DNA of 64,000 bases from an uncultured Thermotogae bacterium (GTDB taxonomy: Bacteria > Thermotogota > Thermotogae > MWEM01), in contig OY763325.1 of NCBI GenBank assembly GCA_963667315.1, positions 1,989,380-2,053,379 of the forward strand. The letters are read 5' to 3'. Below are positions 96 to 51,037 of this stretch, in pieces. The notes beneath the pieces are model-generated. The model was not told the origin of the DNA, did not search any database, and saw only the letters and a program-made list of their open reading frames with translations. A program made the position numbers and the translations under genes. Within the stretch, counting starts at the first letter, position 1; every line of letters starts with the position of its first letter.

Positions 96-2969
96 ATGCC
101 CAAGAGAGAGAAAACGAATCGCCATTTGTTTCTACATAAAAAGAGAGTTACCACAGTCATAATCTGTCTTTTGGCTGCGGCACTTCTATTCTCACAATAC
201 GATAAAACCCTGAAAGTTCGGGGAGACTTTGACTATCCGCCCTTTGAGTATTTAAATGATGACGGTGAACCTGAAGGCTTTAACGTCGATGTCTTTCGAA
301 CGGTAGCCAGGATCATGGGGCTCAGTTACGAGATCACCCTTGACACCTGGGAGACGGTCAGAACAGAAATAGAAACCGATCAGGCGGATGTGTTGCTCGG
401 GATGTATCGAACCGAAGAGCGGGACAAACTGGTTGATTTCACCACACCGCATTTCATCTCGACTTATGCCGTCTTCGTACCTGCCGATTCAGCGATCACA
501 TCTATCGGTGATGCCTATGGAAAAAAGATCGGTGTTCAGATGGGCGATATCGGATATGATTATGTGATTGAAAACCGCTTGACCGAAGAAGTTTATACGG
601 AGAAAACGATTCAGGAAGTCCTGAAAGCTCTGGAATCTGGAAAGATCGATTGTGCATTAATCTCAAGACTACAGGGACTCATGATTATCCAAGAGGAAAA
701 TATAAAAAACATCAAGCCGGTAGGCCCACCGGTCATTCAGCGAGAATATTCATTTGCGGTCACGGAAGATGATATCGGACTGCTTTCAGTATTGAACGAA
801 GGGCTTGACATCTTAAAATCATCCGGGAATTTTGATGAATTATACAACAAATGGTTTACGCCGTTTGAACAGGCCGATTACTCGCGTCTTTTTTGGATCA
901 TTACGATTCTGATCTTCTTTTTCATCGGTTTATTCGCTGCTTTCCTGCTCTGGAACTGGTCATTAAAAAAAAGGGTTGAGGAGAGAACGGCTGAACTTGA
1001 AAAGAGTCGTGAAGATTACAGAATCACTTTTAATTCAATCGGTGATGCCGTTATTTCAACCGACATGATCGGAATGATAAGAGGGATGAACCCGATGGCA
1101 ATCAACCTGACCGGTCATACGCCCCGTAAAACCAAAAAGGCGCAGCTGATAGACGTTTTTAACATCATCGATCTGAAAAACAAAACACCTATAGACAATC
1201 CCGTTCTCGAAGCGAGAAAAACGGGGAAAACCGTAAGATATAACCGTGCCGGTCTGATTTCTAGAAACGGTAAGGTCTTCAAGATTTCCTGTATCTGTTC
1301 ACCGATCCGAAACAAGCGAAAAAAGATCACCGGTTTCGTCATCGTTTTCAGAAATGTAACGGAAGAATATAAGCGGCAGGAAGCGCTGAGGAAGAGCGAA
1401 GAAAGGCTGCGAACGTTGAGCAACAATATCGATAACGGCTATATCTATCAATATACGACGAATCGGGATGGTGAAAAGGTTAAATTTATTTATCTGAGTG
1501 ACGGTGTAAAAAATATTCATGAATTATCTGTCGATGCGATCAAAAAAGATACTTATCAAATCGCAAAACAGATCAACACCAGCTCCCTTGGAGAACTCGG
1601 TAGATTAAACAAAAAATCCGCAAAAAAACTTCAACCCCTTAAATACGAAATAGCCATCCGCACGGATTCCGGCAAAGAAAAGTGGCTGCTCATCAACTCG
1701 ACCCCTCAATTACAAGAGGATAATACAATCGTCTGGGATGGTCTGTGTATCGATATCACCTCACATAAGCAACTCGAAAGGGAATTAAAAAAAGCCAAAG
1801 ATATTGCGGAAAGATCAAACAAAGCCAAGACGGAGTTCCTCAACAATATCAGTCACGAACTCAGAACACCGCTTAACGGTGTACTGGGATTCAGTAATCT
1901 TATGAAAGAAACACCGCTTGATACAACACAGGAGGACTATCTGAACATCATCATCCGGTCGGGGAAACATCTCTTGAATATCATTAAAGATATACTGGAT
2001 CTGTCAAAGATCGAATCGGGTCATTTCAGTTTACAAAGTGAAAAGACAAACCTCAGGGAACTGCTCGAGTCAACGGTAGAAATCGTTCGTTACAAGGCAG
2101 AAAAAAAAGGACTCTCGCTCAAACAGACTATTCCCGACAATGTTCCCGTCTTTGTCCGTGTTGACCCGATCATCCTGAAACAGATCCTGTTAAATCTTCT
2201 TGGAAATGCGGTAAAATTCACCCCAAAAGGGGAGATAGAGATCGCCGTATTTTTGATCGATAATGATCAAAAGAAATCATACTCAAAACTCTTGTTCATC
2301 GTAAAAGATACCGGTATTGGTATCAAGCAGGAGAACATAGAACTCATCACACAACCTTTTAGTCAGGAAGACTATTCCATCACGAGAAATTACGGGGGGA
2401 CAGGCCTCGGACTCGCCATCACGACGAAACTCCTGAAAAAGATGCAAAGCGCTCTTTCAATCGAAAGTAAAAAGGGTGAAGGCAGTCTCTTTTCATTCCA
2501 GCTTGAACTTCAAACGCAATCAGACCCCTCAAAAAAGCCAAATGATGCTGAACCAATCCACATTGAACAGCCATCAAAGGATTACAGTATCCTGAACGGG
2601 AAGAAAATCCTGATCGTTGAGGATAATCATGCGAACATGCTGCTAACCGAGAAAATTCTCTCAAAAACAAATCCAAACATCCATATACTCAAAGCATTTG
2701 ACGGCTACAAAGCGATCAGCTTGTTCGAAACGGAAAATCCGGACCTGATCCTGATGGATATCAACCTTTCGGGAACAGACGGTTATGCACTGACGAAACA
2801 GATAAGAAAAAAGGATAAGAAAACGCCTATCGTTGCGGTCACGGCCAGCGCTTTACTCGAAGAAAGGGAAAAATGTTTGAACAACGGGATGAATGCGTAT
2901 CTTGCAAAACCCTTTTCCCCTGAGAACCTCCGCAAGATCATTCATGATTTTTTCAAAGAAGAAGCTTGA
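96..2969 (+). CDS. Hybrid sensor histidine kinase: periplasmic solute-binding (SBP_bac_3-like) domain, TM, PAS, HisKA, HATPase_c and C-terminal receiver
   Basis: 957-aa ORF with a GGTGA RBS 5 nt upstream. A TM helix (LFWIITILIFFFIGLFAAFLLW) follows the N-terminal binding-protein-like domain. H-box is ISHELRTPLNGVLGF and the ATPase G-box is GTGLGLAI. The C-terminal REC domain reads ILIVEDNHANM...LILMDINLSGTDGYAL...AKPF. Confidence 0.9.
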   Translation: MPKREKTNRHLFLHKKRVTTVIICLLAAALLFSQYDKTLKVRGDFDYPPFEYLNDDGEPEGFNVDVFRTVARIMGLSYEITLDTWETVRTEIETDQADVLLGMYRTEERDKLVDFTTPHFISTYAVFVPADSAITSIGDAYGKKIGVQMGDIGYDYVIENRLTEEVYTEKTIQEVLKALESGKIDCALISRLQGLMIIQEENIKNIKPVGPPVIQREYSFAVTEDDIGLLSVLNEGLDILKSSGNFDELYNKWFTPFEQADYSRLFWIITILIFFFIGLFAAFLLWNWSLKKRVEERTAELEKSREDYRITFNSIGDAVISTDMIGMIRGMNPMAINLTGHTPRKTKKAQLIDVFNIIDLKNKTPIDNPVLEARKTGKTVRYNRAGLISRNGKVFKISCICSPIRNKRKKITGFVIVFRNVTEEYKRQEALRKSEERLRTLSNNIDNGYIYQYTTNRDGEKVKFIYLSDGVKNIHELSVDAIKKDTYQIAKQINTSSLGELGRLNKKSAKKLQPLKYEIAIRTDSGKEKWLLINSTPQLQEDNTIVWDGLCIDITSHKQLERELKKAKDIAERSNKAKTEFLNNISHELRTPLNGVLGFSNLMKETPLDTTQEDYLNIIIRSGKHLLNIIKDILDLSKIESGHFSLQSEKTNLRELLESTVEIVRYKAEKKGLSLKQTIPDNVPVFVRVDPIILKQILLNLLGNAVKFTPKGEIEIAVFLIDNDQKKSYSKLLFIVKDTGIGIKQENIELITQPFSQEDYSITRNYGGTGLGLAITTKLLKKMQSALSIESKKGEGSLFSFQLELQTQSDPSKKPNDAEPIHIEQPSKDYSILNGKKILIVEDNHANMLLTEKILSKTNPNIHILKAFDGYKAISLFETENPDLILMDINLSGTDGYALTKQIRKKDKKTPIVAVTASALLEEREKCLNNGMNAYLAKPFSPENLRKIIHDFFKEEA

Positions 2970-3057: not shown

Positions 3058-5124
3058 TCATCGTATACTTCTGATCAACGATTTCGCATCCAGTATCAAG
3101 GCAACTTTTCCGTCTCCGAGAACGGTTGCACCGGAACAATGATCCACCTTCTTGAAATTTTCCTCCAGTGATTTGATGACGATCTGATATTTTCCGATGA
3201 CTTCATCAATGATAAGGGCAACATTTGTATTCCCCGATTGTACGATGATCAGCATCTCTTTTTTTCCGGGCTGGAAAGAAAGGAACGCTGCGAGATCGAT
3301 CACCGGAATAAACTCATTCTGAAATTCAAGCGTGCTGCGATTATTGACGTTATGCAGGTCTTTGGGGTTCAACGGCAGGAACTTAACCACCGATTGAATG
3401 GGGATGATCAACTTGTTAAATCCGGCGGTAATAAGTATCCCGTCTATGATGGCAAGTGTCAGGGGGATATGAATCAGAAATTCAGACCCCGCACCGGGCT
3501 CACTGTGAACTTCTATATCACCGTGAATGATGTTGATATTATCCTTGACGACATCCATTCCGACACCTCGTCCGGAGATATCCGTCACCACTTTCGCCGT
3601 CGAAAAACCCGGGCTGAAGATGATCTTATTCGCCTCTTCCTGAGAAAGTCTTTTATCCGGTTCAATCAACTCTTTTTCAATAGCTTTTTTCGTAACGGCT
3701 ACCGGATCGATTCCCTTACCGTCATCCTTGATTCTGATCATGACCTCACCGTTCTGATGACTGGCTTCCAGCAATATGGACCCGATTTTCGATTTACCGG
3801 CTTTCTCTCTTTCTTCCGGTGTTTCAATCCCATGATCGATAGAATTTCTCAGCATATGCTTCAACGGATCTTTTATCTTCTCCGTGATCGTCTTATCCAG
3901 TTCGGTACTCTCACCTTTTATCTCAAAATCGATCAATTTATCCTGTTTTTTGGCAAGATCTCTGACCAGTCTTCGAAAAGGCATCAGGGTATCCTTGATG
4001 GCAACCATTCTCGTATCCATCACATCTTCCTGAAGATGATTGATATACCGGTCAAGTTCCGTCAATGCGGCTTCCTCTTCGAGATCCATCCAGCCTTTTC
4101 TTTCCATGATCTGTCTGATTCGAGACTTCACTACCACAACCTCACCGATGGATTCCAGAATCCTGTCCAGTTTATCCGTTTCTATTCTCAGGGTACTGGC
4201 ACGCTGAACCTTTCTGATCTCCTGCTGTTTCTGGGCGATTGAATCCACGACTTTTTTCGTTATTTTACCGTCTTTAACCAGCTCTTCCCCGATTTTTTTA
4301 TGCCTGTCCAATGTTTCATTGATTTCAGATTCTTCAAGATACCCCTCTTTAACCAGGATTTCCCCTATCTTCGAATCCTCTGCGACACTAATCTCTTCTT
4401 CCGAAATCGATTCAACAACGATGTCATTATCCATCGCGGCAAAGATAAAAACATCATCGATAGCACTCTTTCCTTGTGGTGATTCCACAATGATTACCCA
4501 TGAGAGATAATTGACAAACGGATCCAGCGTCTGAAACAACGGAACATCTTTAATCTTCATGACCGATTGCTTAATCGCACAATGCGCCGCAAGATCTTCA
4601 ATCAACAGCAGGGGGTCCGTCCCCGTTTCAAACACATCCTGCCTGAAACACATCTCTATTCTGAAGAAGCGGTCTTTCACTTCCCGATTTTCTTGTTTTC
4701 CGGCATCAGAATTGGCACTTTCATCACTGATAGCAGCCTCTCCTGCTTTTTTAATCAGGTATTCAACTTCATTTATCTTCTTGGGATCGGGATAGTCCCC
4801 CTGTGAAGAAGCGGCGTTTACCATCTGATGGATGATATCCTTTGACTGAAACAGGACCTCAATGATCTCCGGTGAATTTTTAATACGTCCATCCCGCAAG
4901 GCACTCATTAACTCTTCCAGCTTATGGGTAAAGGATTCGATATCGGTTAGATTAACAAAACCGGCACTTCCCTTTAATGTATGCATACTCCTGAATATGA
5001 TCTTTACGGTTTCGGGATTTTCAGGATCAGATTCCAGATTCAGGAGTTCATTTTCAAGTATACTCAGGTGCTCTTCCGCATCTATAAGAAAGACTTCCAG
5101 CATTTCTGAATCGAGATTGGACAT
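3058..5124 (-). CDS. cheA: Chemotaxis histidine kinase CheA (P1 Hpt, P2 region, MshEN-like tandem motif in linker, P3, P4 HATPase, P5 CheW-like)
   Basis: Hpt motif HTLKGSAGF. P3 start is TLRIETDKLDRILESIGEVVVVKSR. The ATPase region has HMLRNSIDHGIE and GRGVGMDVV, and the C-terminal domain is CheW-like. Residues 252-300 carry two RLGxxLLxxGYIxxxxLxxxLxxQ-like motifs. Confidence 0.92.
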   Translation of the reverse strand: MSNLDSEMLEVFLIDAEEHLSILENELLNLESDPENPETVKIIFRSMHTLKGSAGFVNLTDIESFTHKLEELMSALRDGRIKNSPEIIEVLFQSKDIIHQMVNAASSQGDYPDPKKINEVEYLIKKAGEAAISDESANSDAGKQENREVKDRFFRIEMCFRQDVFETGTDPLLLIEDLAAHCAIKQSVMKIKDVPLFQTLDPFVNYLSWVIIVESPQGKSAIDDVFIFAAMDNDIVVESISEEEISVAEDSKIGEILVKEGYLEESEINETLDRHKKIGEELVKDGKITKKVVDSIAQKQQEIRKVQRASTLRIETDKLDRILESIGEVVVVKSRIRQIMERKGWMDLEEEAALTELDRYINHLQEDVMDTRMVAIKDTLMPFRRLVRDLAKKQDKLIDFEIKGESTELDKTITEKIKDPLKHMLRNSIDHGIETPEEREKAGKSKIGSILLEASHQNGEVMIRIKDDGKGIDPVAVTKKAIEKELIEPDKRLSQEEANKIIFSPGFSTAKVVTDISGRGVGMDVVKDNINIIHGDIEVHSEPGAGSEFLIHIPLTLAIIDGILITAGFNKLIIPIQSVVKFLPLNPKDLHNVNNRSTLEFQNEFIPVIDLAAFLSFQPGKKEMLIIVQSGNTNVALIIDEVIGKYQIVIKSLEENFKKVDHCSGATVLGDGKVALILDAKSLIRSIR

Positions 5125-5144: not shown

Positions 5145-5522
5145 TTATTTGATTACTTTTTTGACGATTCCCTGCAATTGTTCCGGTTTAAAGGGTTTGA
5201 CAAGCCATCCGGTCGCACCGGCTCTTTTCCCCTCCATCTTCATGGAATCCTGGGATTCTGTTGTCAAAACGAGGATCGGTGTAAACTTGGCATTCCTGTT
5301 CTGCTTGATTTCCTTAATAAACTCAATCCCACCCATGATCGGCATGTTGATATCCGTAATGATCAGATTGATTCGATTCCCGCCGGCAAAATGTTTCTCC
5401 GCAACCGCAAGGGCATCTTTCCCATTCTTGCCTTCAAGGATGTCATATTCTTTTTTCAACGCCATTTTAACGGCAACTCTTACTGTAGCTGAATCATCAA
5501 CTATTAAAATCGTTTTATTCAT
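5145..5522 (-). CDS. cheY: CheY-like single-domain response regulator
   Basis: 125 aa with receiver signature ILIVDDSATVR...LIITDINMPIMGG...KPF. It lies immediately upstream of cheA in the same orientation. Confidence 0.9.
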   Translation of the reverse strand: MNKTILIVDDSATVRVAVKMALKKEYDILEGKNGKDALAVAEKHFAGGNRINLIITDINMPIMGGIEFIKEIKQNRNAKFTPILVLTTESQDSMKMEGKRAGATGWLVKPFKPEQLQGIVKKVIK

Positions 5523-5802
5523 CGTTCACCTCAAACTCAAGTACGTCATGTGCACCATATGTTATAAATAGTTTTTTTAACGCCTCCGTGATCAGCATCC
5601 TGCATTCACATTTTCCGGCATCACCGTATTTCTGAAGCGATACAAGCATCTGAAGACCGGCAGTATCTATATCTTCAATGTCGGTAAGATCGAGTATAAA
5701 ACCTTCACCGGATTCATGCGTATCCAATTCGTTCCTGATCCCTTTCATCACTTCCTCAACATTATAGACGGTCAATTCTTTTTCAATCTTATATGTCATA
5801 AA
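5515..5802 (-). CDS. STAS-domain protein (SpoIIAA-like anti-sigma-factor antagonist fold) in the che operon
   Basis: The start was moved to MTYKIEKE (ATG at 5800-5802), which has a GAGGAGG RBS and sits just after the upstream gene's stop at 5813-5815. The STAS-like pattern is ...FILDLTDIEDIDTAGLQMLVSL.... Confidence 0.7.
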   Translation of the reverse strand, partial: FMTYKIEKELTVYNVEEVMKGIRNELDTHESGEGFILDLTDIEDIDTAGLQMLVSLQKYGDAGKCECRMLITEALKKLFITYGAHDVLEFEVNDE

Positions 5803-5812
5803 AACCTCCTCA

Positions 5813-7567
5813 TCAAAAGAGGGTAAACTCTCCACCATCGGATCCCACATCGTCAATTTCCATATGATCACTGGCTTTCAATCGCTCTCTGTACGTTGTA
5901 AATTTCTCACTCAAAACCTTTAGCTCTTCATTCTCAAGGAATTCCTGATCGTATTTGGGAACACTTTGCTCAAACGTCGATACCTCAAGATAGATCTCTT
6001 CGTTCTGAGCTTCTACACGTTGAAGCATCGCTTCAAAATCACCTTGAACATCGTTAATATAACCAAGAGAATCGTTAAATTTTTTCATCATACCGGTATA
6101 CGAACGCTCTATATCTTTAACAAGTCTTTCAAGTCCACTGAATATTGCCTTTAATTCATCTTTCTGAATCAAATCGGTGGAACACGCCTTGAAATTATCG
6201 AAAACAAACTGATTGGTTTTATAAGTCCCCACAATTCTCGTGGTCACACGATCCAGCCGAAGTGTCGTTTTGGTCACTTTTTCTATCGCCTCATCAAACT
6301 CGAGTCTGATGCCCTCGGCCTTTTTCCCCATCTTGTCCTCAATTCTTGCCAGTTCCGCTTTTATGAGGATGTTCATCGTCTTGAAACGTTTCACAATGAC
6401 CATCGCGTTGTTCACTTCAGACCCCAGCCGTTTGATATTGTCTCCAAAATGATAAAGACTGTCCCTGAGACTCGCCAGACCATTCAGTACATCTTCCATA
6501 AACACCGTATTTTTGACCGTGATAATCATGACTTCCTGAATGGTTCGATACAGAGATGCTTCATTATTTTCAAGAAAATACAGCGCAAATTCCCTTGAGG
6601 GTTCCGATATGGCTTCCTCAATATCATTGATAAAGCAGGAAAACTCATCCGCAACTCTGGAAAAAGCGGAAGAAAATTCATTTTTTGAATCCTCCACAAT
6701 ATCCTTCGACACTTCAAGCACGAACTTCAAGAAACTCAATTCATGTTCGTCCCCACCTGTAAAATCAAAATGGCGTTGTTCAAGATCGTTCAGAAAATCG
6801 ATGATATGTTCCATCTGCTGTCTGAAGATATCCTGTCCCACCATATGCGCCATGATATCGGGAAAAGATGCGGAAGCCATATCCGAACCGGCTTTCATCT
6901 TTTGATGAAGAACACTCAGCGCATCCTCCACGCTTTCAAAACGATCCATCAATTTTGTGAAATTCCCCCGAAGAGCTGAAAATTCTGTAAATTGCGTTAT
7001 CGTTTCCCTGAAATAGGCGATATTCGGGAAACTCTCCCTGATGATATCACTAATTGTCCTGAAATGTTTGACCAGCATCTGAGTCTGCCGTTCCACTTCT
7101 TTTGAGAGAACGGAAAACGCCCCGCCTTCAGCTCCAAGCTGTGATGATGTGATGGAAGAGTTCAACGCAACCGAGTTGAGGTCTTCAAGCGAGGCTTCAA
7201 CATTTTTTGCTTCGCTGATGATGATTTCCACAAAGGATTCGTCTTTATCACCATGTCCCTCGCTCTTAAAGACATTCTTAAAGATCAAATCCACGTTGTC
7301 GATCAATGATGTGACATTCTTCAGCGATTGGGTAACCCCTTTTCTCAAGATACTCAATTGAGAAATAAAAGAATCGTCTTCATCTTCGGAAGAGGATTGC
7401 GTTAACCTCTCCAGAAACTCGTTGATGAAATGAACAGAAGTCTGAATCTCCTCTTCAAATTTCGGAAGCGATTCATAAACCTGTCTGGCCAGTTCTTCAC
7501 TGCCCATGATACTATCCTGAATATTTTGTTTTATGTCACGTATACGACTACTGTAATCTTCACTCAA
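5813..7567 (-). CDS. Cytoplasmic, highly diverged methyl-accepting-chemotaxis-protein-like protein (acidic, coiled-coil, no TM)
   Basis: 584 aa, very acidic and helical. The segment LNSSITSSQLGAEGGAFSVLSKEVERQTQ aligns to the MCP signalling-hairpin core [31 protein letters not shown] of the neighbouring MCPs. No hydrophobic helices are present. It is co-oriented with STAS-cheY-cheA. Confidence 0.45.
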   Translation of the reverse strand: MSEDYSSRIRDIKQNIQDSIMGSEELARQVYESLPKFEEEIQTSVHFINEFLERLTQSSSEDEDDSFISQLSILRKGVTQSLKNVTSLIDNVDLIFKNVFKSEGHGDKDESFVEIIISEAKNVEASLEDLNSVALNSSITSSQLGAEGGAFSVLSKEVERQTQMLVKHFRTISDIIRESFPNIAYFRETITQFTEFSALRGNFTKLMDRFESVEDALSVLHQKMKAGSDMASASFPDIMAHMVGQDIFRQQMEHIIDFLNDLEQRHFDFTGGDEHELSFLKFVLEVSKDIVEDSKNEFSSAFSRVADEFSCFINDIEEAISEPSREFALYFLENNEASLYRTIQEVMIITVKNTVFMEDVLNGLASLRDSLYHFGDNIKRLGSEVNNAMVIVKRFKTMNILIKAELARIEDKMGKKAEGIRLEFDEAIEKVTKTTLRLDRVTTRIVGTYKTNQFVFDNFKACSTDLIQKDELKAIFSGLERLVKDIERSYTGMMKKFNDSLGYINDVQGDFEAMLQRVEAQNEEIYLEVSTFEQSVPKYDQEFLENEELKVLSEKFTTYRERLKASDHMEIDDVGSDGGEFTLF

Positions 7568-7675
7568 GATAAAAACCTCATTTATTAAGATTTAAAGATT
7601 ATACCTTAAAACAGGTCTTATTATCAATAAACGGAATCACACCTGCTTTCGTCCCCAACCCTTTAAAATCACGGT

Positions 7676-9637
7676 TTAATCCAGCGGAATGACATCATCC
7701 GGTGAGGCAATATGCGTCTTTTTGTTTGAAGGGCGAACAGATTGCATCCCATTGACGCGCTTTCTTCTATCATGCTTCTGATCGTTATCGTGATCCCGCT
7801 GATGATCAACCGGTCGGCGTCCGCCGGAACCCCCAACCATTCGGCTCAGTTCTCCGACAAGACTGTTAAGATTCTCCGCCTGCGCATTCAATTCTTCCGA
7901 TGATGAGGCCGTTTCTTCAGCATTCGCGGCATTCTGCTGCGTCACCTGCTCCATCTGACTGAGCGCCTGATTGATCTGATCGATTCCCTGTGCCTGTTCT
8001 TTTGTTGCAACGTTAATTTCTTCAATCAGCTTATTCAGATTAATCGATTCCCTGTTTATCTCACTAAGAGACTCACCGACTCTGCCGGCAACCTCCATCC
8101 CGCTCTTTGACAATTCGATGTTTTTTTCGATGATCGTCTTCGTATCATTCGCCGCCTTGGCACTTCTCTGCGCCAGATTTCTGACTTCCTCCGCCACTAC
8201 GGCAAACCCTGCCCCGGCTTCCCCCGCTCTTGCCGCTTCAACCGCCGCGTTGAGCGACAGGATATTCGTCTGGAAGGCAATATCATCGATGACCTTGATG
8301 ATCTTGGAAATCTCTTTACTGGAATCGTTCAATTTCTGCATGGATCCCATCATATCTTCCATTTCATGCTGACCCTTTTCGGAAGATTGCGTTGCCGTAA
8401 CGGAGATCTGTGTTGCCTGTGTGGTATTTTCAGAGGTTCTCTGAAGCATCGAACTGGATTCATTTAGCGTCGCAGCCGTCTCCTCAAGCGAAGAGGCCTG
8501 TTCACTGCTACCTTCTGCAAGCTGCTGACTGGCACCGGACAGTTCGTTGGAAGCCTGCGTTACCTGAGAAGAGGATTCCGTTAACCCTTCCATCACCCTT
8601 TTCAGAGACAGTGTGATACTTCTCGCAATGATGATGGCGATAAAAATACCAAGGGCAATCGCAACGATAGAGAAAATCACAAGGATCATCTGCGTCTGAT
8701 TCGCCAGATTTACCATGACCTCATCGGTCATCACATTTTGTTTGGTCGTATCGACGATCTGATCAAAATACCCCTTGACCGTGTTCACTGTTTCAGACGT
8801 TTCCGTGTTGTATATGGCCTTCGCCTCGTTATATGAAGCGACAAGAGTATCTATTCTTTCAATTATGTCCTCGATAAGCGCTTTGACCTCTTCCATCCTG
8901 GGAACGGTATGTGTCCGAAAATAGGTAAGTGAACGCTCATACCTGTCCTCGGTTCCCGAAGACAGGATATTCTGAATATCCTGGGCGGAATCATGCAGCA
9001 GCTTATGCGGTTCTTTAATCGCTTCAAAATAAAATGTAAGTTGTGTATCCAGGGCTTCCAGTTCACGGGTTTCGCTCCCGTATAAAAATTTCCCGAATCC
9101 GCATTCCCGATAATTCATTTCAACGGATAAAACATCCCGCTTCTCCATCAGATCCATGAGCAACATGTTCATCCAGGCATAATGATCCCTTTCTTTCTGA
9201 GCAAAGAAGCCACTCCACGCCGGATCAATATCCACATATTTTTCAGCTATTTTCAAAGCACTCCGATGTAATGCGTCATGCGGTTCTTCGATCAACTGCA
9301 GAATGCTACTGATCTGCGGTACAACCTTTTCCGCCTCTGTCCTCTCATTTGAATAATACCATTGTCCGAAACCGCATTTATGTGGATCGGTGTTGATGGT
9401 TAAGGTATCAACATTAGGGTTCATGATAAATTCATTCAAAGAAGCCGCCCATTCAAGGTGATCAACCTTCTTTTCAATGATGGTTCCGGTAATCTTATTC
9501 CCTGAGATTACTTCATTCGCATTCGTTACGATCTGAGAGATATTGAAGACTGCAAAGATCGATAAAACACTTAGAATCACAAGAATTACGACAAATCCCA
9601 AAAGGATCTTTGCACCGAGTGTCAAATTTCTGAACAT
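7676..9637 (-). CDS. Methyl-accepting chemotaxis protein with two tandem CZB (chemoreceptor zinc-binding) modules between TM1 and TM2, then HAMP and signalling domain
   Basis: The start was moved to MFRNLTLG (GGGGTGA RBS). TM1 lies at about aa 10-35 and TM2 at about aa 300. There are two copies of H-x2-W...C-G-F-G-x-[WF]...H-x3-H. The canonical MCP core [35 protein letters not shown] is present. Confidence 0.88.
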
Positions 9638-9843
9638 CCAATCACCCCTGTCATTATGGTCAGCTCTTTCTGTTTGAAAGTCACCCGAAACGGTCGAATG
9701 AGGTTTCCGGACAACAATTACATTCATATTGATAAGCCAGGTATATTATAACATTATTTTAATAATTTACACAACCTACTTGCACTTGAGGTTAAAAACT
9801 CATTTTTTTTAAAATATAATAATCGAAATCATCTATCATTTTT

Positions 9844-9873
9844 AAAAGCAAAAAGAGGACATCACGCCCTCTT
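9844..9873 (-). terminator. Rho-independent terminator downstream of the second MCP gene
   Basis: Stem aagagg / cctctt with a 9-nt loop, followed on the minus strand by TTTTGCTTTT. Confidence 0.5.
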
Positions 9874-9890
9874 TTCACCTGTTCATTCAA

Positions 9891-11849
9891 TCAAAATCCG
9901 CCATTATCATCTTCCAGCGGAATGACATCCTCCGGACTGACGGCATGTGTCTTCTTTACCGGCTTGGCAATCGTCGTTCTTTTCGAAGGGGGGGAGTAAC
10001 TTTTCAAACCGGGTTTCTGTGCCGGCGGTCTTCTTCTGTTAACCTGACCACCACCGCCGCCTCGTGACGTCGGCTGACTATGTGTAAGCGCGCGGCTACC
10101 GGTTATCATCTCATTCAACCGTGCGACGATATCATTCAGACTCTCAGCCTGTGCACTCATTTCTTCGGATGAAGAAGCTGTTTCTTCAGCGTTTGCCGCA
10201 TTCTGCTGCGTCACCTGCTCCATCTGATTCACCGCTGCGTTAATCTGATTGATGCCCTGCGTTTGCTCCTTGCTCGCCGTGTTGATCTCGTCAATAAGAT
10301 TATTCAATTCACCCGACTGCTGATTGATCTCCTGAAGCGCTTCCTGAACCCGCTGTGCCACACTCACGCCGGCTTCAGACATCTGAAGGTTCTTTTCGAT
10401 GATCTCTGTCGTATCCTGTGCCGCCTTGGCACTTCTCTGTGCCAGATTTCTGACCTCTTCGGCGACAACGGCAAAGCCCGCTCCCGCTTCTCCCGCTCTT
10501 GCAGCCTCAACCGCTGCATTGAGTGACAGGATATTCGTCTGGAAGGCGATATCATCGATAACCTTGATGATCTTGGACAATTCCCCGCTGGACTCTTTGA
10601 TCTCTATCATCGACTGCATCATGTTCTTCATCTCGGAACTGCCCTTTTCGGAAGCCGTTGAGGCGGAAAGAGACAATTCAGAGGCCCTTGATGTGTTATC
10701 CGATGTCTGTTGAATCATTGAACTGGATTCGTTCAACGTTGCAGAAGTCTCTTCCAGCGAAGAGGCCTGTTCGCTGCTGCCCTCCGCGAGTTGCTGACTC
10801 GCCGCGGAAAGCTGTTCGGAAGCCGAGGCAACCTGTTCCGCACCATCCGTTAATCCCTGATTAATCTCAGTCAGCGGCCCGATAATACTGCGGACAACGA
10901 GTAAGGATACAACGATGCCAACAACAACACCGACAACGGAAAGCACAAGCACGAGCATAATCGTGGAATTCTGAAGCCCCTGCATCTCCTCTTTCTGTTC
11001 CGATCGTAACGATTCAACTGCGGAGATAAACGCAACCCTCGTTGATAATAGTGTATCGCTGTAATCCTGACCGTCGTTATAGGCTTCAACATTCTCGTTA
11101 AACGCATTCTGATATTCCACACCGTATTGACGTACATCATCATAGAGATTCTTATCCTCCGTACTGTTTACATCGGATTTTGCCGAATCGATCGCCGCCA
11201 AAATCACCTGCATCTTGTTTGCCATATCCGTCACATACTGCTTGTCATGGTACAGCTGATAGTTTTTCTCTATCTGTCTTGCTTCCAATGCAAGCTTGAT
11301 CAGTTCACTCGCATCTTCCGCCTGTTTGTTGTCCAACTTGATCACCGACATGTCAACATTGTTATCCAGCGCCTGAATCATATCATTCTGCTGTTTTTCC
11401 TTCATCTGTTCACAAAGCTTGATGAATTCACGTGCCGTTGTGATCATGGTATTCCTTGTTGGTACAATATTGTCTTCATAATTCTTTTTATACAGCTCGA
11501 AATTTTGATAATAAGTGTCAGCGTCCGACTTTATCGTATCCATTCTGCTTTTATCGGCTGCATCGTTTAATTTCCCTCTCGTTTCATCCGTCTGGAGCTT
11601 GATATCCGTAATAATCTTTTCAACCTCATCGGCAGAATCCTGATTCGGGTTTTCTATATAATCTTTTGCCGCTATGCCAACGTTGAGGGCATACTTCACC
11701 AGTCTGTTGGCGTCATCAGCCGTTTCCACCTTGTTGGCTGAATTAGTGATCCCGTTCCATGACATAAATCCGACAACGACGATGATAACGATCAAAAGGA
11801 TAAACCCCATCCATATCTTCGTACTCAGCTTCATATTGATTCCAAACAT
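9891..11849 (-). CDS. Methyl-accepting chemotaxis protein with a helical (4HB/HBM-like) periplasmic domain
   Basis: 652 aa with a GAAGGAGTGA RBS 6 nt upstream of the ATG. Two TM helices flank a helical domain of about 270 aa. It has the MCP core motif and a Gly-rich basic C-terminal tail ending ...[15 protein letters not shown]. Confidence 0.9.
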
Positions 11850-11855
11850 AGGCGA

Positions 11856-12332
11856 TCACTCCTTCGATTCTTCGGCAATAAAGGCCAACTCATTTTCGGT
11901 CAGAACCTTTTCGATATCCAGCAGCATAATGACCTTTTCATTCTGCTTTCCCATCCCGATAATGAAATCGGAATCCACTTCAACCCCATATCTTGGAGGC
12001 GGTTCAATCATCGCATCCTCAAGCTTGACAACCTCCGATACGGAATCCACAACGATCCCCATCTGCCGTTTCTTTTCTCCCAGGGTCACTTCAAGGACAA
12101 CGAATACCGTTCTGTCCGTGTATTCCTTTTCCTCAAGGTTGAATTTCAATCTCAAATCCATCAGCGGAATGATCTTTCCCCTCAGGTTGATAACCCCCTT
12201 GATAAACGTTGGCATCCTTGGGACTTCAGTGATTTCCGTCCTGCCAATGATCTCCTGAACTTTTAAAACAGGAATCCCATAGGTTTCTTTACCAAGTCTT
12301 AAAGTCAAATATATCCCGGCTTTGGCTTCCAT
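11856..12332 (-). CDS. cheW: Chemotaxis coupling protein CheW
   Basis: 158 aa containing the CheW-like domain YGIPVLKVQEIIGRTEITEVPRMPTFIKGVINLRGKIIPLMDLR. Confidence 0.88.
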   Translation of the reverse strand: MEAKAGIYLTLRLGKETYGIPVLKVQEIIGRTEITEVPRMPTFIKGVINLRGKIIPLMDLRLKFNLEEKEYTDRTVFVVLEVTLGEKKRQMGIVVDSVSEVVKLEDAMIEPPPRYGVEVDSDFIIGMGKQNEKVIMLLDIEKVLTENELAFIAEESKE

Positions 12333-12563: not shown

Positions 12564-13271
12564 TCATCTCAACATTGTCCCTTCCTTTGCCAGTCTATCC
12601 GCCATATCGTTGTAATAATCACCTGAATGGGCATCCACTTTCTCCCAGATGACATTTACCGTTGTATTTTGTATCTTTTTTTTATAATATTTTGTCAGCT
12701 CATTCTTCGCCGCCCAGGCGTCTGTTGCCCAATCCCGGACACCGGTATAGTCAAAACGGATGATAACGGCGCGGATGCCTTTCCTTTCACAGAATTGAAC
12801 GACTTGCATGACGGCTTCCAGTTCTCCGGCTACCTGCCGGAACGATTCGGTTCCCTCGACACCCCCGCTGAATGTTTTGATAACCCTGTCCTTTTGAAGT
12901 AATACGGCACCATATCCGATACGGCCGTTTAAATAGCTGCCGTCCGTATAGGCGATATAGTCGGTCTGTCCACTTCGCTCATCCTTCTTTTCCTCTTTTT
13001 TCGGAACACCATTGACCTGAAAAAGATTTCTGATCCAAGTCCCCAGCATCATATCCTTTTCAATTTCCACAACAACCCTGAAAGAATCCTTTTTAGGACT
13101 GTAATAAAGGTTAAAGACAAGCAGAACATCAAGATATTCATTCACAATCTCAATCTTAACCATATAATCCCTGAACATCAGAACGTTCAGTTCAAATTTC
13201 ATCTCACGCTTAACCTTTTCTGTTAGTTCCTTCACTTTTTTCTCCAGAATTGCCTGACACTTAGTCATCAT
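12564..13271 (-). CDS. RNase H (type 1) domain protein with an N-terminal domain of about 110 aa and unknown function
   Basis: The C-terminal half carries the RNase HI catalytic residues in order: IAYTDGS, ...AGELEAV..., ...IRFDYTG... and ...DAHSGDYYNDMADRLAKEG. The N-terminal domain is not recognised. Confidence 0.7.
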   Translation of the reverse strand: MMTKCQAILEKKVKELTEKVKREMKFELNVLMFRDYMVKIEIVNEYLDVLLVFNLYYSPKKDSFRVVVEIEKDMMLGTWIRNLFQVNGVPKKEEKKDERSGQTDYIAYTDGSYLNGRIGYGAVLLQKDRVIKTFSGGVEGTESFRQVAGELEAVMQVVQFCERKGIRAVIIRFDYTGVRDWATDAWAAKNELTKYYKKKIQNTTVNVIWEKVDAHSGDYYNDMADRLAKEGTMLR

Positions 13272-27533: not shown

Positions 27534-27654
27534 CAATTCTGAATAACATAGTTAGAAAACAAAGGGAACAAACTGAAAAAGACAGTAAGTTCGAAGGAGA
27601 AAAAATAATAAACAAAGATAAACGATAATGATAAGGAAACATTGGAGGGTAAAG

Positions 27655-50099: not shown

Positions 50100-50125
50100 A
50101 TTCATACCCCTTTCATATTTAATAC

Positions 50126-51037
50126 TCAATCGTTTAAAAATTTAAACCTGTAAACACCGAGAAAACTGGGATTTTCCTTCACAGGCAACCATATCAGAGG
50201 TGCTGCATCAAAATACACATCTTCTTTCCAAAGTCTCAAATAACCGTCATCTTCATCATTCGGCCCCGTGTGATAGATAAAACCGTCATCCGTCAACATG
50301 ACAACATGATAGGGAAAAACATGATCCTGCGGATGATAAAAAAACAACAGATCTCCCATCTTGCCATCCCTGTAATCATCTCCAATTTTTCTGCAGGAGT
50401 AAAGTAAAAGATTTCTCGCATCCGCAAAACCGTAAAAACCGTCAACCACCTGAAAGATCTGCGTCCCGAGAACAGGAACTTCGGGATAGTTAAACGCTCT
50501 GACATCCTCCAGGTTCGGTGCCTGTGAACCGAAGGCATCGTTCCAGCTGCTGTCATGACGTTTTAATGCCTCTACCGCGCAAAAACGGATCAGACCTGAA
50601 CAATCAATATGCTTCCAGTTATCCGCATACTTGATCTTCTGCGATTTGGCAATCCATACCATCCACTCCCGGAATCGACGACAATCCTCACCGTACAACT
50701 CTGATTCATCCGGATAACCGTCCAAATCTTCATCTGCCGCATTTTCTATGACAGAAAAACTTATACTCCCCCGGTTAAAAAACAAACCCGGTCTGAAATA
50801 GGTTAGTTTAAATTTATTATCCGTCAGGATAAAGGTCATCAACTCATCTTCGAGGAAAAGTTCTGCTCCTTCTACATCAATCACCTTTACAAAAGACGGA
50901 ACAGCCAACTGGAAATAATCACCCTTTGCGGAAGGAAAGGAGAGTATGCTTGGACGAAGATAAAAAAAGCCGGAAACTGCGGTAATCAATATTATCAAAA
51001 GAAAAACAACGAATTTTTTCAATTTCTCCCCCTCCAC
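50126..51037 (-). CDS. Secreted or membrane-anchored partner protein of the α2-macroglobulin gene, with conserved Cys...His pair; possibly DUF1175-like
   Basis: About 300 aa. The start is GTG 51037 or TTG 51022 (GGAGGGGGAG RBS). The N-terminal hydrophobic segment is KKFVVFLLIILITAVSG. Conserved-looking motifs are IDCSGLIRFC and ...YHVVMLTDDGFIYHTGP. Its stop is 27 nt before the A2M start. Confidence 0.5.
   Translation of the reverse strand: MEGEKLKKFVVFLLIILITAVSGFFYLRPSILSFPSAKGDYFQLAVPSFVKVIDVEGAELFLEDELMTFILTDNKFKLTYFRPGLFFNRGSISFSVIENAADEDLDGYPDESELYGEDCRRFREWMVWIAKSQKIKYADNWKHIDCSGLIRFCAVEALKRHDSSWNDAFGSQAPNLEDVRAFNYPEVPVLGTQIFQVVDGFYGFADARNLLLYSCRKIGDDYRDGKMGDLLFFYHPQDHVFPYHVVMLTDDGFIYHTGPNDEDDGYLRLWKEDVYFDAAPLIWLPVKENPSFLGVYRFKFLND

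What the first reader, a model, noticed from the sequence alone, without database searches (positions are those of the whole stretch)
5813..7567. Soluble, highly diverged MCP-like protein at the head of the STAS–cheY–cheA operon
The 584-aa acidic coiled-coil protein has no TM helices. It contains a recognisable but heavily substituted version of the MCP signalling-hairpin tip: LNSSITSSQLGAEGGAFSVLSKEVERQ versus [27 protein letters not shown] in the three bona fide MCPs here. The substituted residues are normally the CheA/CheW-contacting positions. It may be a degenerate receptor paralogue acting as a scaffold or array modulator, or one co-evolved with this particular CheA.
Basis: inference. 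Interest (0 to 1): 0.6.

Follow-up and report, generated by a model that had tools for sequence, protein, structure and literature searches.

The report
Receptor-like chemotaxis protein, CheZ-like motif
This gene encodes a soluble, sensor-less, very diverged relative of bacterial chemotaxis receptors, from the same superfamily as Borrelia BB0569, built from two receptor hairpins in tandem and carrying the Asp/Gln catalytic motif of the phosphatase CheZ, so it probably docks into the chemotaxis signalling lattice and may switch off the neighbouring CheY.

Summary
It is acidic (pI 4.7) and has no TM helix and no methylation consensus.

The receptor (MCP) resemblance is real homology, not chance. 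The protein alone scores only E=0.03 against Pfam MCPsignal. A profile of its wider family matches an MCP profile at 98-99% probability (E 1e-13 to 1e-16).

New points:
- It is a tandem of two MCP hairpins; support for the second is moderate.
- It is a diverged Thermotogota branch of a widespread ~600-aa superfamily. That superfamily includes the NCBIfam 'BB0569 family chemotaxis protein' (Borrelia's 'atypical MCP').
- The gene order X-STAS-CheY-CheA recurs across several phyla.
- The most conserved residues are D246 and Q250, in QDIxRQ. Through single-hairpin relatives that also hit Pfam CheZ (one above its cut-off), they align with CheZ catalytic D143/Q147.
- A disordered tail ends in an invariant Phe (..GGEFTLF).

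Best reading: a lattice-docking scaffold that probably also dephosphorylates CheY. The phosphatase step is inferred, and the direct comparison of X with CheZ is not significant.

It is a new variant of a known kind. Interest 0.6.

The parts
5813..7567 (-). Gene X: 584-aa soluble, acidic, all-helical protein; a tandem double-hairpin MCP-like protein of the BB0569 superfamily
   Evidence: ORF and translation; orthologues; wider family; MCP homology; BB0569 link
7598..7627 (-). Sigma-70-like promoter match (TTGATA-18-TATAAT), about 31 nt upstream of the TTG start
   Evidence: Best match (11 of 12) in the 9.8-kb scan. This is a consensus match only, not proof of function.
7448..7498 (-). N-terminal conserved segment, residues 24-40 (E..L....Y.S.P..E.E). 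It is predicted to lie opposite the D-x3-Q helix at the tip-distal end of hairpin 1.
   Evidence: Invariant columns. P35 and E38 are near-invariant family-wide. It aligns with 'VI.qTE.AA' of the single-hairpin relatives. The spatial pairing is inferred from helix lengths.
7088..7180 (-). Hairpin-1 tip, residues 130-160 (LNSVALNSSITSSQLGAEGGAFSVLSKEVER), homologous to the MCP signalling tip
   Evidence: Aligned to [27 protein letters not shown] by hmmsearch against Tsr and by hhalign. N136 is invariant; G148 and F151 are invariant or near-invariant family-wide. There is a helix break at residue 144 in the model.
6803..6844 (-). CheZ-like motif helix, residues 242-255 (MVGQDIFRQQMEHI), with D246 and Q250
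   Evidence: D246 and Q250 are invariant in A2 and A4. The motif [QH]D-x-x-[RK]Q is present in 128 of 139 full-length members. It is in register with QFQDITRQ of the single-hairpin relatives, which aligns with E. coli CheZ FQD143LTGQ147.
6317..6388 (-). Hairpin-2 degenerate tip, residues 394-417 (RFKTMNILIKAELARIEDKMGKKA), with E405 invariant
   Evidence: C-half against the MCP profile: 82% probability, E 1.1e-5, score 46, against 13-26 for reversed and block-shuffled controls. N-half against C-half: 93% probability, E 3.9e-7. Less diverged relatives have a Pfam MCPsignal hit at this position.
5816..5911 (-). C-terminal module, residues 553-584: SEKFTTYRER helix, then a disordered acidic tail ending in GGEFTLF
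   Evidence: Invariant in orthologues. T557 and F584 are invariant family-wide. pLDDT is below 50 for residues 569-584. 135 of 139 full-length members end in hydrophobic-Phe. Relatives carry repeated DGVELF units.
5515..5799 (-). STAS-domain protein (94 aa from the ATG at 5799), of the CheS / anti-sigma-antagonist type
   Evidence: Pfam STAS E 7.6e-8. RBS GAGGAGG followed by ATG directly after the X stop codon. Conserved downstream of X in most loci.
5145..5522 (-). CheY (125 aa), the most conserved partner of X
   Evidence: Pfam Response_reg E 8.9e-24. 50-78% identical across the related loci.
3058..5124 (-). CheA (688 aa; Hpt, dimerisation, HATPase_c and CheW-like P5 domains; no Pfam P2 hit)
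   Evidence: Conserved after CheY in related loci.
7676..12332 (-). Upstream cheW (11856-12332) and two transmembrane MCPs (9891-11849; 7676-9727 with a CZB domain). These are likely lattice partners.
   Evidence: Pfam. In relatives, CheW and an MCP follow CheA instead.

Best explanation
**What X is**
- X is a non-sensing, non-methylatable chemoreceptor paralogue of the BB0569 superfamily.
- It is built from two MCP signalling hairpins in tandem.

**How it most likely works**
- Hairpin 1 keeps the key tip residues (N136, G145, G148, F151). Through it, X docks into the receptor/CheW/CheA lattice formed by the co-encoded CheA, beside the neighbouring transmembrane MCPs. There it acts as a structural component.
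- At the tip-distal end of hairpin 1 it displays an invariant Asp246-x3-Gln250 on a helix. This is the arrangement CheZ uses to dephosphorylate CheY~P.
- At the end of a flexible acidic tail it carries an invariant ..GGEFTLF peptide, which could tether the co-encoded CheY as the CheZ C-terminal peptide does.
- X would then be a lattice-anchored CheY~P phosphatase working with the CheS-like STAS protein.

**Shown**
- MCP homology, the internal duplication, superfamily membership, the conserved synteny, the motif conservation, and the alignment to the CheZ dyad via relatives.

**Inferred**
- Lattice docking, which rests on homology and on the published BB0569 phenotype.
- Phosphatase activity and tail-CheY binding.

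**My sub-confidences**
- MCP-derived and in the BB0569 superfamily: about 0.9.
- Lattice component: about 0.65.
- CheY~P phosphatase: about 0.4-0.45.
For: **MCP homology**
- Family profile against MCP profile: 98-99% probability, with controls.
- 37 of 45 members hit Pfam MCPsignal.
- The family profile hits bona fide MCPs at E 6e-11 in 5.8 billion proteins.
- Foldseek matches to Tsr, TM1143 and TM14 hairpins have probability 0.90-0.99 and TM-score up to 0.52 normalised to the target.

**Duplication**
-.

**Superfamily**
- P0188 (Spirochaeta africana) matches the family profile at E 9e-91. It matches NCBIfam BB0569 over its full length at E 1.7e-40.
- 4 of 45 members hit the BB0569 model.
- BB0569 is described as an atypical MCP required for chemotaxis and located at the cell poles (PMC10703414, PMC5318424).

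**Synteny**
- X-(STAS)-CheY-CheA in Thermotogota, Thermincola, Halanaerobiales, Dethiobacter, a Desulfovibrionaceae MAG and other MAGs. In Treponema loci CheA, CheW and CheY are nearby in a different order.

**CheZ link**
- D246 and Q250 are invariant.
- X N-half against the single-hairpin relatives: 99.8% probability, E 2.4e-27, with the motif in register.
- All 9 single-hairpin relatives tested hit Pfam CheZ. P0103 scores 32.0 bits, above the 30.7 cut-off. They also hit the NCBIfam CheZ models.
- Their profile aligns D to CheZ D143 and Q to Q147, at 16.5 bits against 7.7 or less for 200 shuffles and the reversed sequence.
- hhalign against a CheZ profile gives 58.6% probability, E 9.6e-5.

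**Tail**
- Disordered in the model, with an invariant terminal Phe; repeated in relatives.

**CheD**
- cheD overlaps the 3' end of the X homologue in S. africana. cheD is common in the clusters. This recalls the CheC-CheD and CheX-CheD phosphatase pairs (established knowledge).
Against: **The CheZ link is weak for X itself**
- X does not hit Pfam or NCBIfam CheZ or BB0569 models.
- Segments of the X-family alignments against CheZ are no better than shuffled or reversed controls.
- The similarity of the relatives to CheZ collapses from 16.5 to 2.8 bits when the 7-residue motif is masked. It could therefore be motif convergence.

**Phenotype of the Borrelia homologue**
- From my recollection of Zhang et al. 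2016 (J Bacteriol 198:664; not held in the library), the bb0569 mutant runs constantly and loses receptor clustering.
- That fits a scaffold role. It does not fit loss of a phosphatase acting on the motor-controlling CheY.

**Geometry**
- The D-x3-Q site would sit about 100 residues (about 15 nm) from tip 1, which is far from CheA.

**Tail**
- Most non-Thermotogota clusters encode CheR, and many also CheB. The tail could instead be a CheR/CheB tether like NWETF.

**Structure**
Confidence: 0.5

Rival explanations
1. X is a purely structural scaffold. It only nucleates or staples receptor arrays. This could be beside membrane MCPs, as reported for BB0569. It could also be as an extended rod with a tip at each end linking two CheA/CheW baseplates, as DosM does in F9 cytoplasmic arrays. 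The D-x3-Q helix, the FTxYxER segment and the tail would then bind other partners (STAS, CheD, CheR/CheB) or serve folding.
For: - Double-hairpin, sensor-less architecture with no methylation sites.
- DosM is a two-signalling-domain scaffold, and 98% of its homologues lack sensor domains (PMC9321776, PMC7534058).
- BB0569 is polar and needed for chemotaxis.
- There is no significant direct similarity of X to CheZ.
- CheR and CheD are in many related clusters.
Against: - The two most conserved residues of a superfamily at 15-20% identity are an Asp and a Gln spaced i, i+4. They lie away from both tips. This is unusual for a purely structural coiled coil.
- Relatives hit CheZ models with the dyad in register.
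- The F9 signature genes (triple CheW next to the receptor, then CheB) are absent here.
Confidence: 0.35
2. X is a decoy or tether for adaptation enzymes. The C-terminal hydrophobic-x-Phe peptide would be an analogue of the NWETF pentapeptide. It would concentrate CheR/CheB (or CheD) at the lattice for neighbouring receptors that lack such a tail.
For: - The peptide sits at the extreme C-terminus after a flexible linker and ends in Phe. In this clade an aromatic residue occupies position 2 (EFTLF).
- It is multiplied in relatives.
- CheR and CheD (and often CheB) are in most non-Thermotogota clusters. cheB2 is next to bb0569 in Borrelia.
Against: - There is no CheR, CheD or CheB methylesterase in this 64-kb window or in the Thermotogota loci, yet the tail is invariant there.
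- The Trp of the xWxxF consensus is absent.
- This reading does not explain the D-x3-Q invariance.
Confidence: 0.08
3. X is an unrelated coiled-coil protein, and the tip-like stretch is a chance resemblance. This is the refutation condition the first reader set.
For: - The single-sequence Pfam hit is only E=0.03.
- Equally weak hits to Dynamin_M and DUF948 appear.
- Designed coiled coils top the PDB profile search.
Against: - Profile-profile comparison gives 98-99% probability, with reversed and heptad-block-shuffled controls far lower.
- 37 of 45 relatives hit MCPsignal individually.
- Bona fide MCPs are hit at E 6e-11.
- The protein aligns colinearly, at 99.8% probability, with proteins bearing a canonical tip.
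- The che-gene synteny is conserved.
Confidence: 0.01

Closest known systems
BB0569 family chemotaxis protein (NCBIfam NF052273; Borrelia burgdorferi BB0569, an 'atypical MCP')
   Same: - About 590-aa soluble protein with an MCP-like tip near residues 110-170.
- Members of the same alignment as X hit the model over its full length (E 1.7e-40 and 1.4e-37).
- The S. africana member P0188 has the same motifs: tip 1, IQQQDIIKQ, IEVAK, FTIYTHK and ..GEVTLF.
- It is encoded with CheW, bb0566, CheA, CheB and CheY (cheW2-bb0566-cheA1-cheB2-bb0569-cheY2).
   Different: - The window protein is too diverged to hit the model. It is 15-21% identical to the wider family.
- The gene order is X-STAS-CheY-CheA, with no CheB next to it.
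- I found no mention of the double-hairpin nature, the D-x3-Q motif or the tail in the papers I could read.
DosM (Vibrio cholerae VC1403), the double-signalling-domain receptor of F9 cytoplasmic arrays
   Same: - Two MCP signalling domains in tandem.
- No sensor domain.
- Acts as a scaffold.
- Comparable overall architecture.
   Different: - The F9 order is DosM-CheW3-CheB...CheR-CheY-CheA, with a triple CheW.
- Here CheW is single-domain (158 aa), STAS sits between X and CheY, and no CheR or CheB is nearby.
- In X neither hairpin reaches the Pfam cut-off.
- I could not obtain a DosM sequence, so direct homology and the presence of the D-x3-Q motif in DosM are untested.
CheZ (Pfam PF04344), the CheY~P phosphatase of Proteobacteria
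   Same: - Helical-hairpin protein with a catalytic Asp-x3-Gln on a helix (FQD143LTGQ147). X has GQD246IFRQ250.
- A flexible linker ends in a C-terminal peptide whose last residue is Phe.
- The gene lies next to cheY and cheA.
- Single-hairpin relatives of X hit the CheZ models.
   Different: - There is no significant direct similarity of X to CheZ.
- X is three times longer and contains MCP tips.
- A whole second hairpin is inserted between the motif helix and the tail.
- Activity is untested.
icpA-cheS-cheY1-cheA arrangement of Sinorhizobium and Agrobacterium (soluble MCP, STAS protein CheS, sink CheY1, CheA)
   Same: - The same gene order: soluble receptor-like gene, small STAS-only protein, CheY, CheA.
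- CheS binds CheA and speeds CheY1~P dephosphorylation (PMC12654446).
   Different: - The name IcpA and its being a conventional single-hairpin soluble MCP come from my own knowledge. The paper read does not mention IcpA.
- Homology of this STAS to CheS, and of X to IcpA, was not tested.
- The phylum is different.
Single-hairpin MCP/CheZ hybrids found here (for example P0103 and P0130; annotated 'hypothetical protein')
   Same: - The N-half of X is colinear with them (99.8% probability). Shared features are the N-terminal motif, tip, QFQDITRQ, YTMESER and a terminal ..ELF.
- P0103 lies next to CheA and CheY.
   Different: - They keep a canonical tip ([12 protein letters not shown]) and pass the Pfam MCPsignal cut-off.
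- They have one hairpin.
- Some have N-terminal hydrophobic segments.

Membership tests
MCP signalling domain (Pfam PF00015) | Match to the family model at or above the curated cut-off | tested here: not met
   The window protein scores 14.6 bits (E 0.03) against a cut-off of 34.6. Homology is nevertheless supported at profile level: 98-99% probability, and 37 of 45 relatives hit.
MCP signalling domain (Pfam PF00015) | Conserved hairpin-tip residues (equivalents of Tsr N381, the turn glycines, F396, E385, R388) | tested here: inconclusive
   N136, G145, G148 and F151 are retained and are invariant or near-invariant. The E385 and R388 equivalents are T140 and Q143.
MCP signalling domain (Pfam PF00015) | Methylation sites ([ASTG][ASTG]xx[EQ][EQ]xx[ASTG][ASTG]) | tested here: not met
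   No strict or relaxed match in X. The three window MCPs have 1-3 each. Only 7 of 45 family members have any match.
BB0569 family chemotaxis protein (NCBIfam NF052273) | Match to the family model | tested here: not met
   No hit for the window protein at E<=1 or E<=0.01. 4 of 45 aligned relatives hit (best E 1.4e-37), and P0188 hits at E 1.7e-40. All are far below the curated equivalog cut-off of 1000 bits. I therefore file X in the wider superfamily, not in the equivalog family.
BB0569 family chemotaxis protein (NCBIfam NF052273) | Colinear ~590-aa architecture and shared motifs | tested here: met
   P0188 matches the X-family profile at E 9e-91 with 96% coverage. It has tip 1, QDIIKQ, IEVAK, FTIYTHK and GEVTLF.
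BB0569 family chemotaxis protein (NCBIfam NF052273) | Role in receptor clustering and chemotaxis | not testable with these tools
   Known only from Borrelia genetics (plus my recollection of Zhang et al. 2016).
DosM / F9 double-signalling-domain receptor | Two MCP signalling domains in tandem | tested here: inconclusive
   Hairpin 1: 98% probability. Hairpin 2: 82% probability, E 1.1e-5. Half against half: 93% probability. Controls were clean. Neither domain passes Pfam in X itself. Closer relatives show two MCPsignal stretches.
DosM / F9 double-signalling-domain receptor | F9 gene neighbourhood (CheW with three domains, then CheB, adjacent; CheR-CheY-CheA) | tested here: not met
   CheW here is 158 aa with a single domain. 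No CheR, CheD or CheB methylesterase lies in the window. STAS sits between X and CheY.
CheZ (Pfam PF04344) | Match to the family model | tested here: not met
   No hit for X. Segment profiles against CheZ are at noise level. Relatives do hit: P0103 at 32.0 bits, above the 30.7 cut-off, and 9 of 9 single-hairpin relatives and 1 of 1 double-hairpin relative tested at E<0.03.
CheZ (Pfam PF04344) | Catalytic Asp143 and Gln147 equivalents on one helix face | tested here: met
   D246 and Q250 are invariant. They are in register with QFQDITRQ, which aligns to FQD143LTGQ147. This is a transitive alignment, not a direct one.
CheZ (Pfam PF04344) | C-terminal CheY-binding peptide on a flexible linker | tested here: inconclusive
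   A conserved terminal peptide ends in an invariant Phe after a low-confidence acidic tail. There is no sequence homology to the CheZ peptide, and binding was not tested.
CheZ (Pfam PF04344) | CheY~P phosphatase activity | not testable with these tools
   Needs biochemistry.
CheS-type module (soluble MCP - STAS - CheY - CheA) | Gene order and a small STAS-only protein | tested here: met
   STAS of 94 aa (Pfam E 7.6e-8) lies between X and CheY. The order is conserved in relatives. Homology to S. meliloti CheS was not tested.

The most novel reading that the evidence does not exclude
The whole superfamily would consist of chemoreceptor-lattice-embedded, CheZ-type CheY~P phosphatases. That covers this Thermotogota protein, the Bacillota, Treponema and other homologues, Borrelia BB0569, and the single-hairpin proteins that hit both MCPsignal and CheZ. 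On this reading the proteins are 'receptors' whose output is dephosphorylation rather than kinase control. They would also mark the evolutionary bridge by which the proteobacterial phosphatase CheZ arose from a chemoreceptor hairpin.
Probability: 0.3. Interest if true: 0.8.

Novelty: new variant of a known kind. Interest (0 to 1): 0.6.

Why it matters
**Scope of the family**
- The profile search found 458 cluster representatives, from several phyla.
- Almost all are annotated 'hypothetical protein'.
- They are nearly always encoded with CheY and CheA, and usually with STAS.

**Why the mechanism would matter**
- CheZ is regarded as confined to Proteobacteria, and its origin is unknown (my own knowledge).
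- If the invariant Asp-x3-Gln is catalytic, this would be a CheZ-type CheY~P phosphatase built into a receptor scaffold. It would occur in Thermotogota, Bacillota and spirochaetes, which are thought to rely on CheC, CheX and FliY (my own knowledge).
- It gives a concrete, testable hypothesis for Borrelia BB0569. BB0569 is essential for chemotaxis, its mechanism is unknown, and it sits in the cheA1 cluster now linked to RpoS and virulence (PMC10703414).
- Point mutants of the Asp and Gln would separate a catalytic role from a scaffolding role.

**If the phosphatase idea fails**
- The family still stands as a second class of double-hairpin receptor scaffolds beside DosM.

Tried and rejected
1. 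**Direct X against CheZ.** I ran hhalign of the orthologue alignment against E. coli CheZ (0.2% probability). I also ran HMMs of segments of A1, A2 and A4 against CheZ with 200 shuffles and a reversed control, and hhalign against a 97-sequence enteric CheZ profile. None beat the controls. The CheZ link therefore rests on the transitive chain through the single-hairpin relatives.
2. **Is QDIFRQ just the canonical MCP 'M(D/E)QVTQQN' motif?** Rejected. It lies 106 residues after the tip reference position, against 96 in the window MCPs. hhalign does not align the two.
3. **Is X an F9 DosM?** Rejected on gene neighbourhood. Sequence comparison was not possible because no DosM sequence was available.
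4. **PDB searches.** The orthologue profile gave only weak Tsr and Aer hits plus designed coiled coils. A single-sequence search with the C-terminal part of P0130 found no CheZ.
6. **Other neighbours.** The unannotated 404-aa and 591-aa genes in L041 and L042 are not family members.
7. **Genome scan.** The first scan, using the full diverse alignment, failed for lack of a conserved stretch. A sub-alignment worked.
8. **Papers not held.** Briegel 2016 (DosM), Wuichet and Zhulin 2010, and Zhang 2016 (BB0569) are not in the library.
9. **tblastn specificity.** Hits for 'CheB' and 'RR-SpoIIE' are mostly receiver-domain matches. They are not used as evidence. Only the CheR and CheD hits are treated as specific.
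Full report
**1. What is at the coordinates**

The ORF at 5813-7567 exists but is on the minus strand. It has a TTG start and encodes 584 aa. A GAGG ribosome-binding site precedes the start. The best sigma-70-like match of the 9.8-kb region scanned (TTGATA-18-TATAAT, 11 of 12) lies at 7627-7598 on the minus strand, immediately upstream.

The protein is acidic, with pI 4.68 and 108 D+E against 66 K+R. Its maximum 19-residue hydropathy is 1.07, so it has no TM segment. It has no match to the methylation-site consensus, whereas the three window MCPs have one to three each. Two AlphaFold runs predict a nearly all-helical protein with a disordered C-terminal tail. The second run, made on the diverse alignment, gave mean pLDDT 79.4 and pTM 0.56, with residues 569-584 below 50.

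The minus-strand neighbourhood runs in this order:
- cheW (11856-12332)
- MCP (9891-11849)
- MCP with a CZB domain (7676-9727)
- X (5813-7567)
- STAS (the real start is probably the ATG at 5799, giving 94 aa)
- cheY (5145-5522)
- cheA (3058-5124)

X, STAS, cheY and cheA are separated by -8 to +20 nt, so they form one translationally packed unit.

**2. Is the receptor resemblance more than chance?**

Alone, the protein is marginal. Pfam MCPsignal gives E=0.03 and 14.6 bits against a cut-off of 34.6, covering residues 131-234.

Thirty-four close homologues, all 51% identical or more and all from Thermotogota MAGs where a source name is given, show the tip-like stretch to be almost invariant. Their profile reaches Tsr (1qu7) only at E=0.025.

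An exhaustive profile search of 1.84 billion cluster representatives then found 458 relatives. Many are ~600-aa proteins matching end to end at 15-21% identity. With this diverse alignment (A2), the evidence becomes strong:
- 37 of 45 members hit MCPsignal individually, the best at E 2.7e-11.
- The profile hits bona fide MCPs at E 6e-11 in a 5.8-billion-protein database.
- hhalign against an MCP profile gives 97.5-98.9% probability and E 7.6e-12 to 1.8e-16 over about 255 columns. The X tip aligns on [27 protein letters not shown].
- A reversed-MCP control scores 25 against 99.

**3. Two hairpins, not one**

The C-terminal half (residues 269-584) also matches the MCP profile: 82% probability, E 1.1e-5, score 46. 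Reversed and heptad-block-shuffled controls score 13-26. AELARIEDKMGKKA aligns to [14 protein letters not shown], and E405 is invariant family-wide.

The two halves match each other in register at 93% probability and E 3.9e-7. Block-shuffled controls score 13-25 and the reversed control 36.

Less diverged relatives such as P0099, P0095 and P0081 show two Pfam MCPsignal stretches at the corresponding positions. They align colinearly with X.

Helix lengths in the model fit two long hairpins with arms of about 115-140 residues. The turns are at residue 144 and at residues 409-414. Foldseek places Tsr, TM1143 and TM14 hairpins on the model with probability 0.90-0.99, but with weak E-values. I could not determine whether the two hairpins lie side by side or form an extended rod.

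**4. The family and its neighbours**

A genome scan found 33 loci. They come from Thermincola, Halanaerobiales (Halanaerobacter, Orenia, Fuchsiella, Frackibacter), Dethiobacter, Desulfitispora, Limnochordia, a Desulfovibrionaceae MAG, Treponema, KSB1, Calditrichaeota and a Bacteroidetes MAG.

tblastn with the window proteins shows X-(STAS)-CheY-CheA, usually followed by CheW and an MCP, in most of the Thermotogota, Bacillota and Desulfovibrionaceae-MAG loci. In Treponema loci CheA, CheW and CheY are nearby but in a different order. CheY is 50-78% identical across loci.

The clusters differ in their adaptation genes:
- CheR and CheD are present in most non-Thermotogota clusters.
- They are absent from this window and from the other Thermotogota loci.
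- In Spirochaeta africana the X homologue overlaps cheD.
- In one Bacillota MAG, X is followed by STAS and a receiver-PP2C phosphatase, which is a partner-switching signature.

**5. Known relatives**

*BB0569.* NCBIfam NF052273, 'BB0569 family chemotaxis protein', matches the S. africana member P0188 over its full length at E 1.7e-40. P0188 itself matches the X-family profile at E 9e-91. The model also hits 4 of 45 A2 members, but not the window protein.

In Borrelia the gene sits in cheW2-bb0566-cheA1-cheB2-bb0569-cheY2. It is called an atypical MCP, is required for chemotaxis, and localises at the poles (PMC10703414, PMC5318424). My recollection of the original paper, Zhang et al. 2016 (not held), is that the mutant runs constantly and loses receptor clustering.

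*DosM.* The double-signalling-domain scaffold of F9 arrays has the same general architecture. Its neighbourhood is different: DosM-CheW3-CheB...CheR-CheY-CheA.

*Alphaproteobacteria.* The alphaproteobacterial order, MCP-cheS(STAS)-cheY1-cheA, is the same as here. CheS helps CheA drain CheY1~P (PMC12654446).

**6. The most conserved feature is a CheZ-type Asp-x3-Gln**

Across the superfamily the invariant residues are N136, D246, Q250, E405 and F584. G148, F151 and T557 are invariant or near-invariant. The motif [QH]D-x-x-[RK]Q is found in 128 of 139 full-length members.

The profile search also pulled in ~400-aa single-hairpin proteins. These carry a canonical tip ([12 protein letters not shown]), then QFQDITRQRIEHV about 115 residues later, then YTMESER and a terminal ..ELF. 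The N-half of the X family aligns with them colinearly at 99.8% probability and E 2.4e-27, with the motif in register.

These single-hairpin proteins hit CheZ models:
- All 9 tested hit Pfam CheZ at E<0.03. P0103 scores 32.0 bits, above the 30.7 cut-off (E 1.4e-7).
- The double-hairpin P0136 hits at E 0.0015.
- The NCBIfam CheZ models are hit as well.

Their profile aligns FQDItRQ with E. coli CheZ FQD143LTGQ147. I validated that CheZ sequence. The score is 16.5 bits, against 7.0 or less for 200 shuffles and 7.7 for the reversed sequence. hhalign against an enteric CheZ profile gives 58.6% probability and E 9.6e-5, against a reversed-control score of 13.5.

Three limits apply:
- Masking the seven motif residues drops the score to 2.8 bits.
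- X-family segments compared directly with CheZ are at noise level, although the optimal alignment still puts QDIxRQ on QDLTGQ.
- The CheZ link for X is therefore a conserved-motif inference through clear homologues, not a direct detection.

**7. The C-terminal module**

SEKFTTYRER corresponds to YTMESER in relatives. It is followed by an acidic, low-confidence tail ending in GGEFTLF.
- The terminal Phe is invariant.
- 135 of 139 full-length members end in hydrophobic-Phe.
- Relatives carry up to about six DGVELF repeats.

This has the features of a tethered short linear motif. The two precedents in chemotaxis are the CheZ C-terminal CheY-binding peptide (..DSLGF) and the NWETF tether for CheR/CheB (established knowledge). 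I cannot tell which it resembles functionally.

**8. Mechanism**

Best reading, at 0.5 overall:
- X is a sensor-less, non-methylatable receptor paralogue.
- It plugs into the CheA/CheW/MCP lattice through hairpin 1 and perhaps hairpin 2, as BB0569 appears to do.
- It presents a CheZ-type catalytic helix and a docking peptide to the co-encoded CheY, working with the CheS-like STAS protein.

The scaffold-only alternative (0.35) is favoured by the Borrelia phenotype and by the lack of direct CheZ similarity. The invariance of an exposed Asp/Gln pair, the CheZ-model hits in relatives and the constant CheY neighbour favour catalysis. The two roles are not exclusive.

**9. Novelty**

The kind is known: atypical cytoplasmic MCPs such as BB0569, and double-domain scaffolds such as DosM. 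The window protein is a very diverged branch that current Pfam and NCBIfam models miss.

In the literature I could search, I found no description of the following:
- the tandem-hairpin nature of the BB0569 superfamily
- its invariant CheZ-type dyad
- the terminal peptide
- the conserved X-STAS-CheY-CheA module across phyla

I rate it a new variant of a known kind, with interest 0.6. The most novel reading not excluded is that these are lattice-embedded CheZ-type phosphatases that bridge MCPs and CheZ in evolution. I give that a probability of about 0.3.

Noticed in passing
L039:3961-5235 (P0103); also P0130, P0091, P0109 and others: About 400-aa proteins with a canonical MCP tip pass the Pfam MCPsignal cut-off and also hit Pfam CheZ (P0103 above the cut-off), with the two hit regions overlapping. 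P0103 sits after CheA, an 89-aa ORF and CheY. They look like MCP/CheZ hybrids, and the one with a source name (P0130) is annotated 'hypothetical protein'.
   Followed up: partly
P0095, P0081, P0099 (alignment A4, columns 740-845); L038:167-2014: The less diverged double-hairpin relatives have C-terminal tails with about three to six repeats of an acidic [DG][VI]ELF unit ending in GDNVELF. This looks like a multivalent short linear motif of unknown partner.
   Followed up: no
window 7676-9727 and 9891-11849 (minus strand): The two transmembrane MCPs next to X share near-identical signalling domains. They also share a C-terminal motif, SP(D/E)DVIPL(D/E), after a basic linker. In the second MCP the signalling domain appears to start directly after the second TM helix, with no HAMP hit in Pfam.
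   Followed up: no
L040:10001-12375 (Spirochaeta africana CP003282): The X homologue (WP_014456053) stands away from any CheA. Its last base overlaps the start of cheD, which suggests a functional X-CheD pair.
   Followed up: no
L041:10001-13462: In a Bacillota MAG the X homologue follows cheR-cheD-cheB. It is followed by a STAS protein and a receiver-SpoIIE (PP2C) phosphatase. This partner-switching signature hints that some of these chemosensory systems feed a sigma-factor switch.
   Followed up: no
window 55108-56163 (+); also L039:100-1206 and L041:1-520: A response regulator fused to an HD_5 (HD-GYP-like) domain is present in the window. Genes with the same architecture sit at the edge of two X-type che clusters elsewhere. 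It is a possible output regulator.
   Followed up: no
window 3058-5124 (minus strand), CheA residues about 105-309: About 200 residues lie between the Hpt and dimerisation domains, with no Pfam P2 (CheY-binding) hit. CheY docking might be supplied by STAS or by X instead.
   Followed up: no
window 96-2969 (+): A hybrid histidine kinase with a periplasmic solute-binding (SBP_bac_3) domain, PAS, HisKA, HATPase and receiver domains lies convergent to cheA. A PAS-HisKA-receiver hybrid kinase also flanks the cluster in L001.
   Followed up: no
window 20284-26820 and 27628-31506 (+): There are two very large ORFs of 2178 and 1292 aa. The first has fn3, SWM_repeat, Chlam_PMP, Ig-like and BslA-like segments; the second has only a Chlam_PMP match. 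The first lies in a stretch with raised GC (0.48-0.52) and strong AT skew (0.30-0.39). They are probably surface or adhesin proteins.
   Followed up: no
window 45555-50129 (minus strand): A 1524-aa bacterial alpha-2-macroglobulin homologue (MG2, A2M, bait region, TED and bMG10 domains).
   Followed up: no
window 12564-13271 (minus strand): An RNase H domain protein with an N-terminal extension of about 100 aa of unknown nature lies directly upstream of cheW.
   Followed up: no
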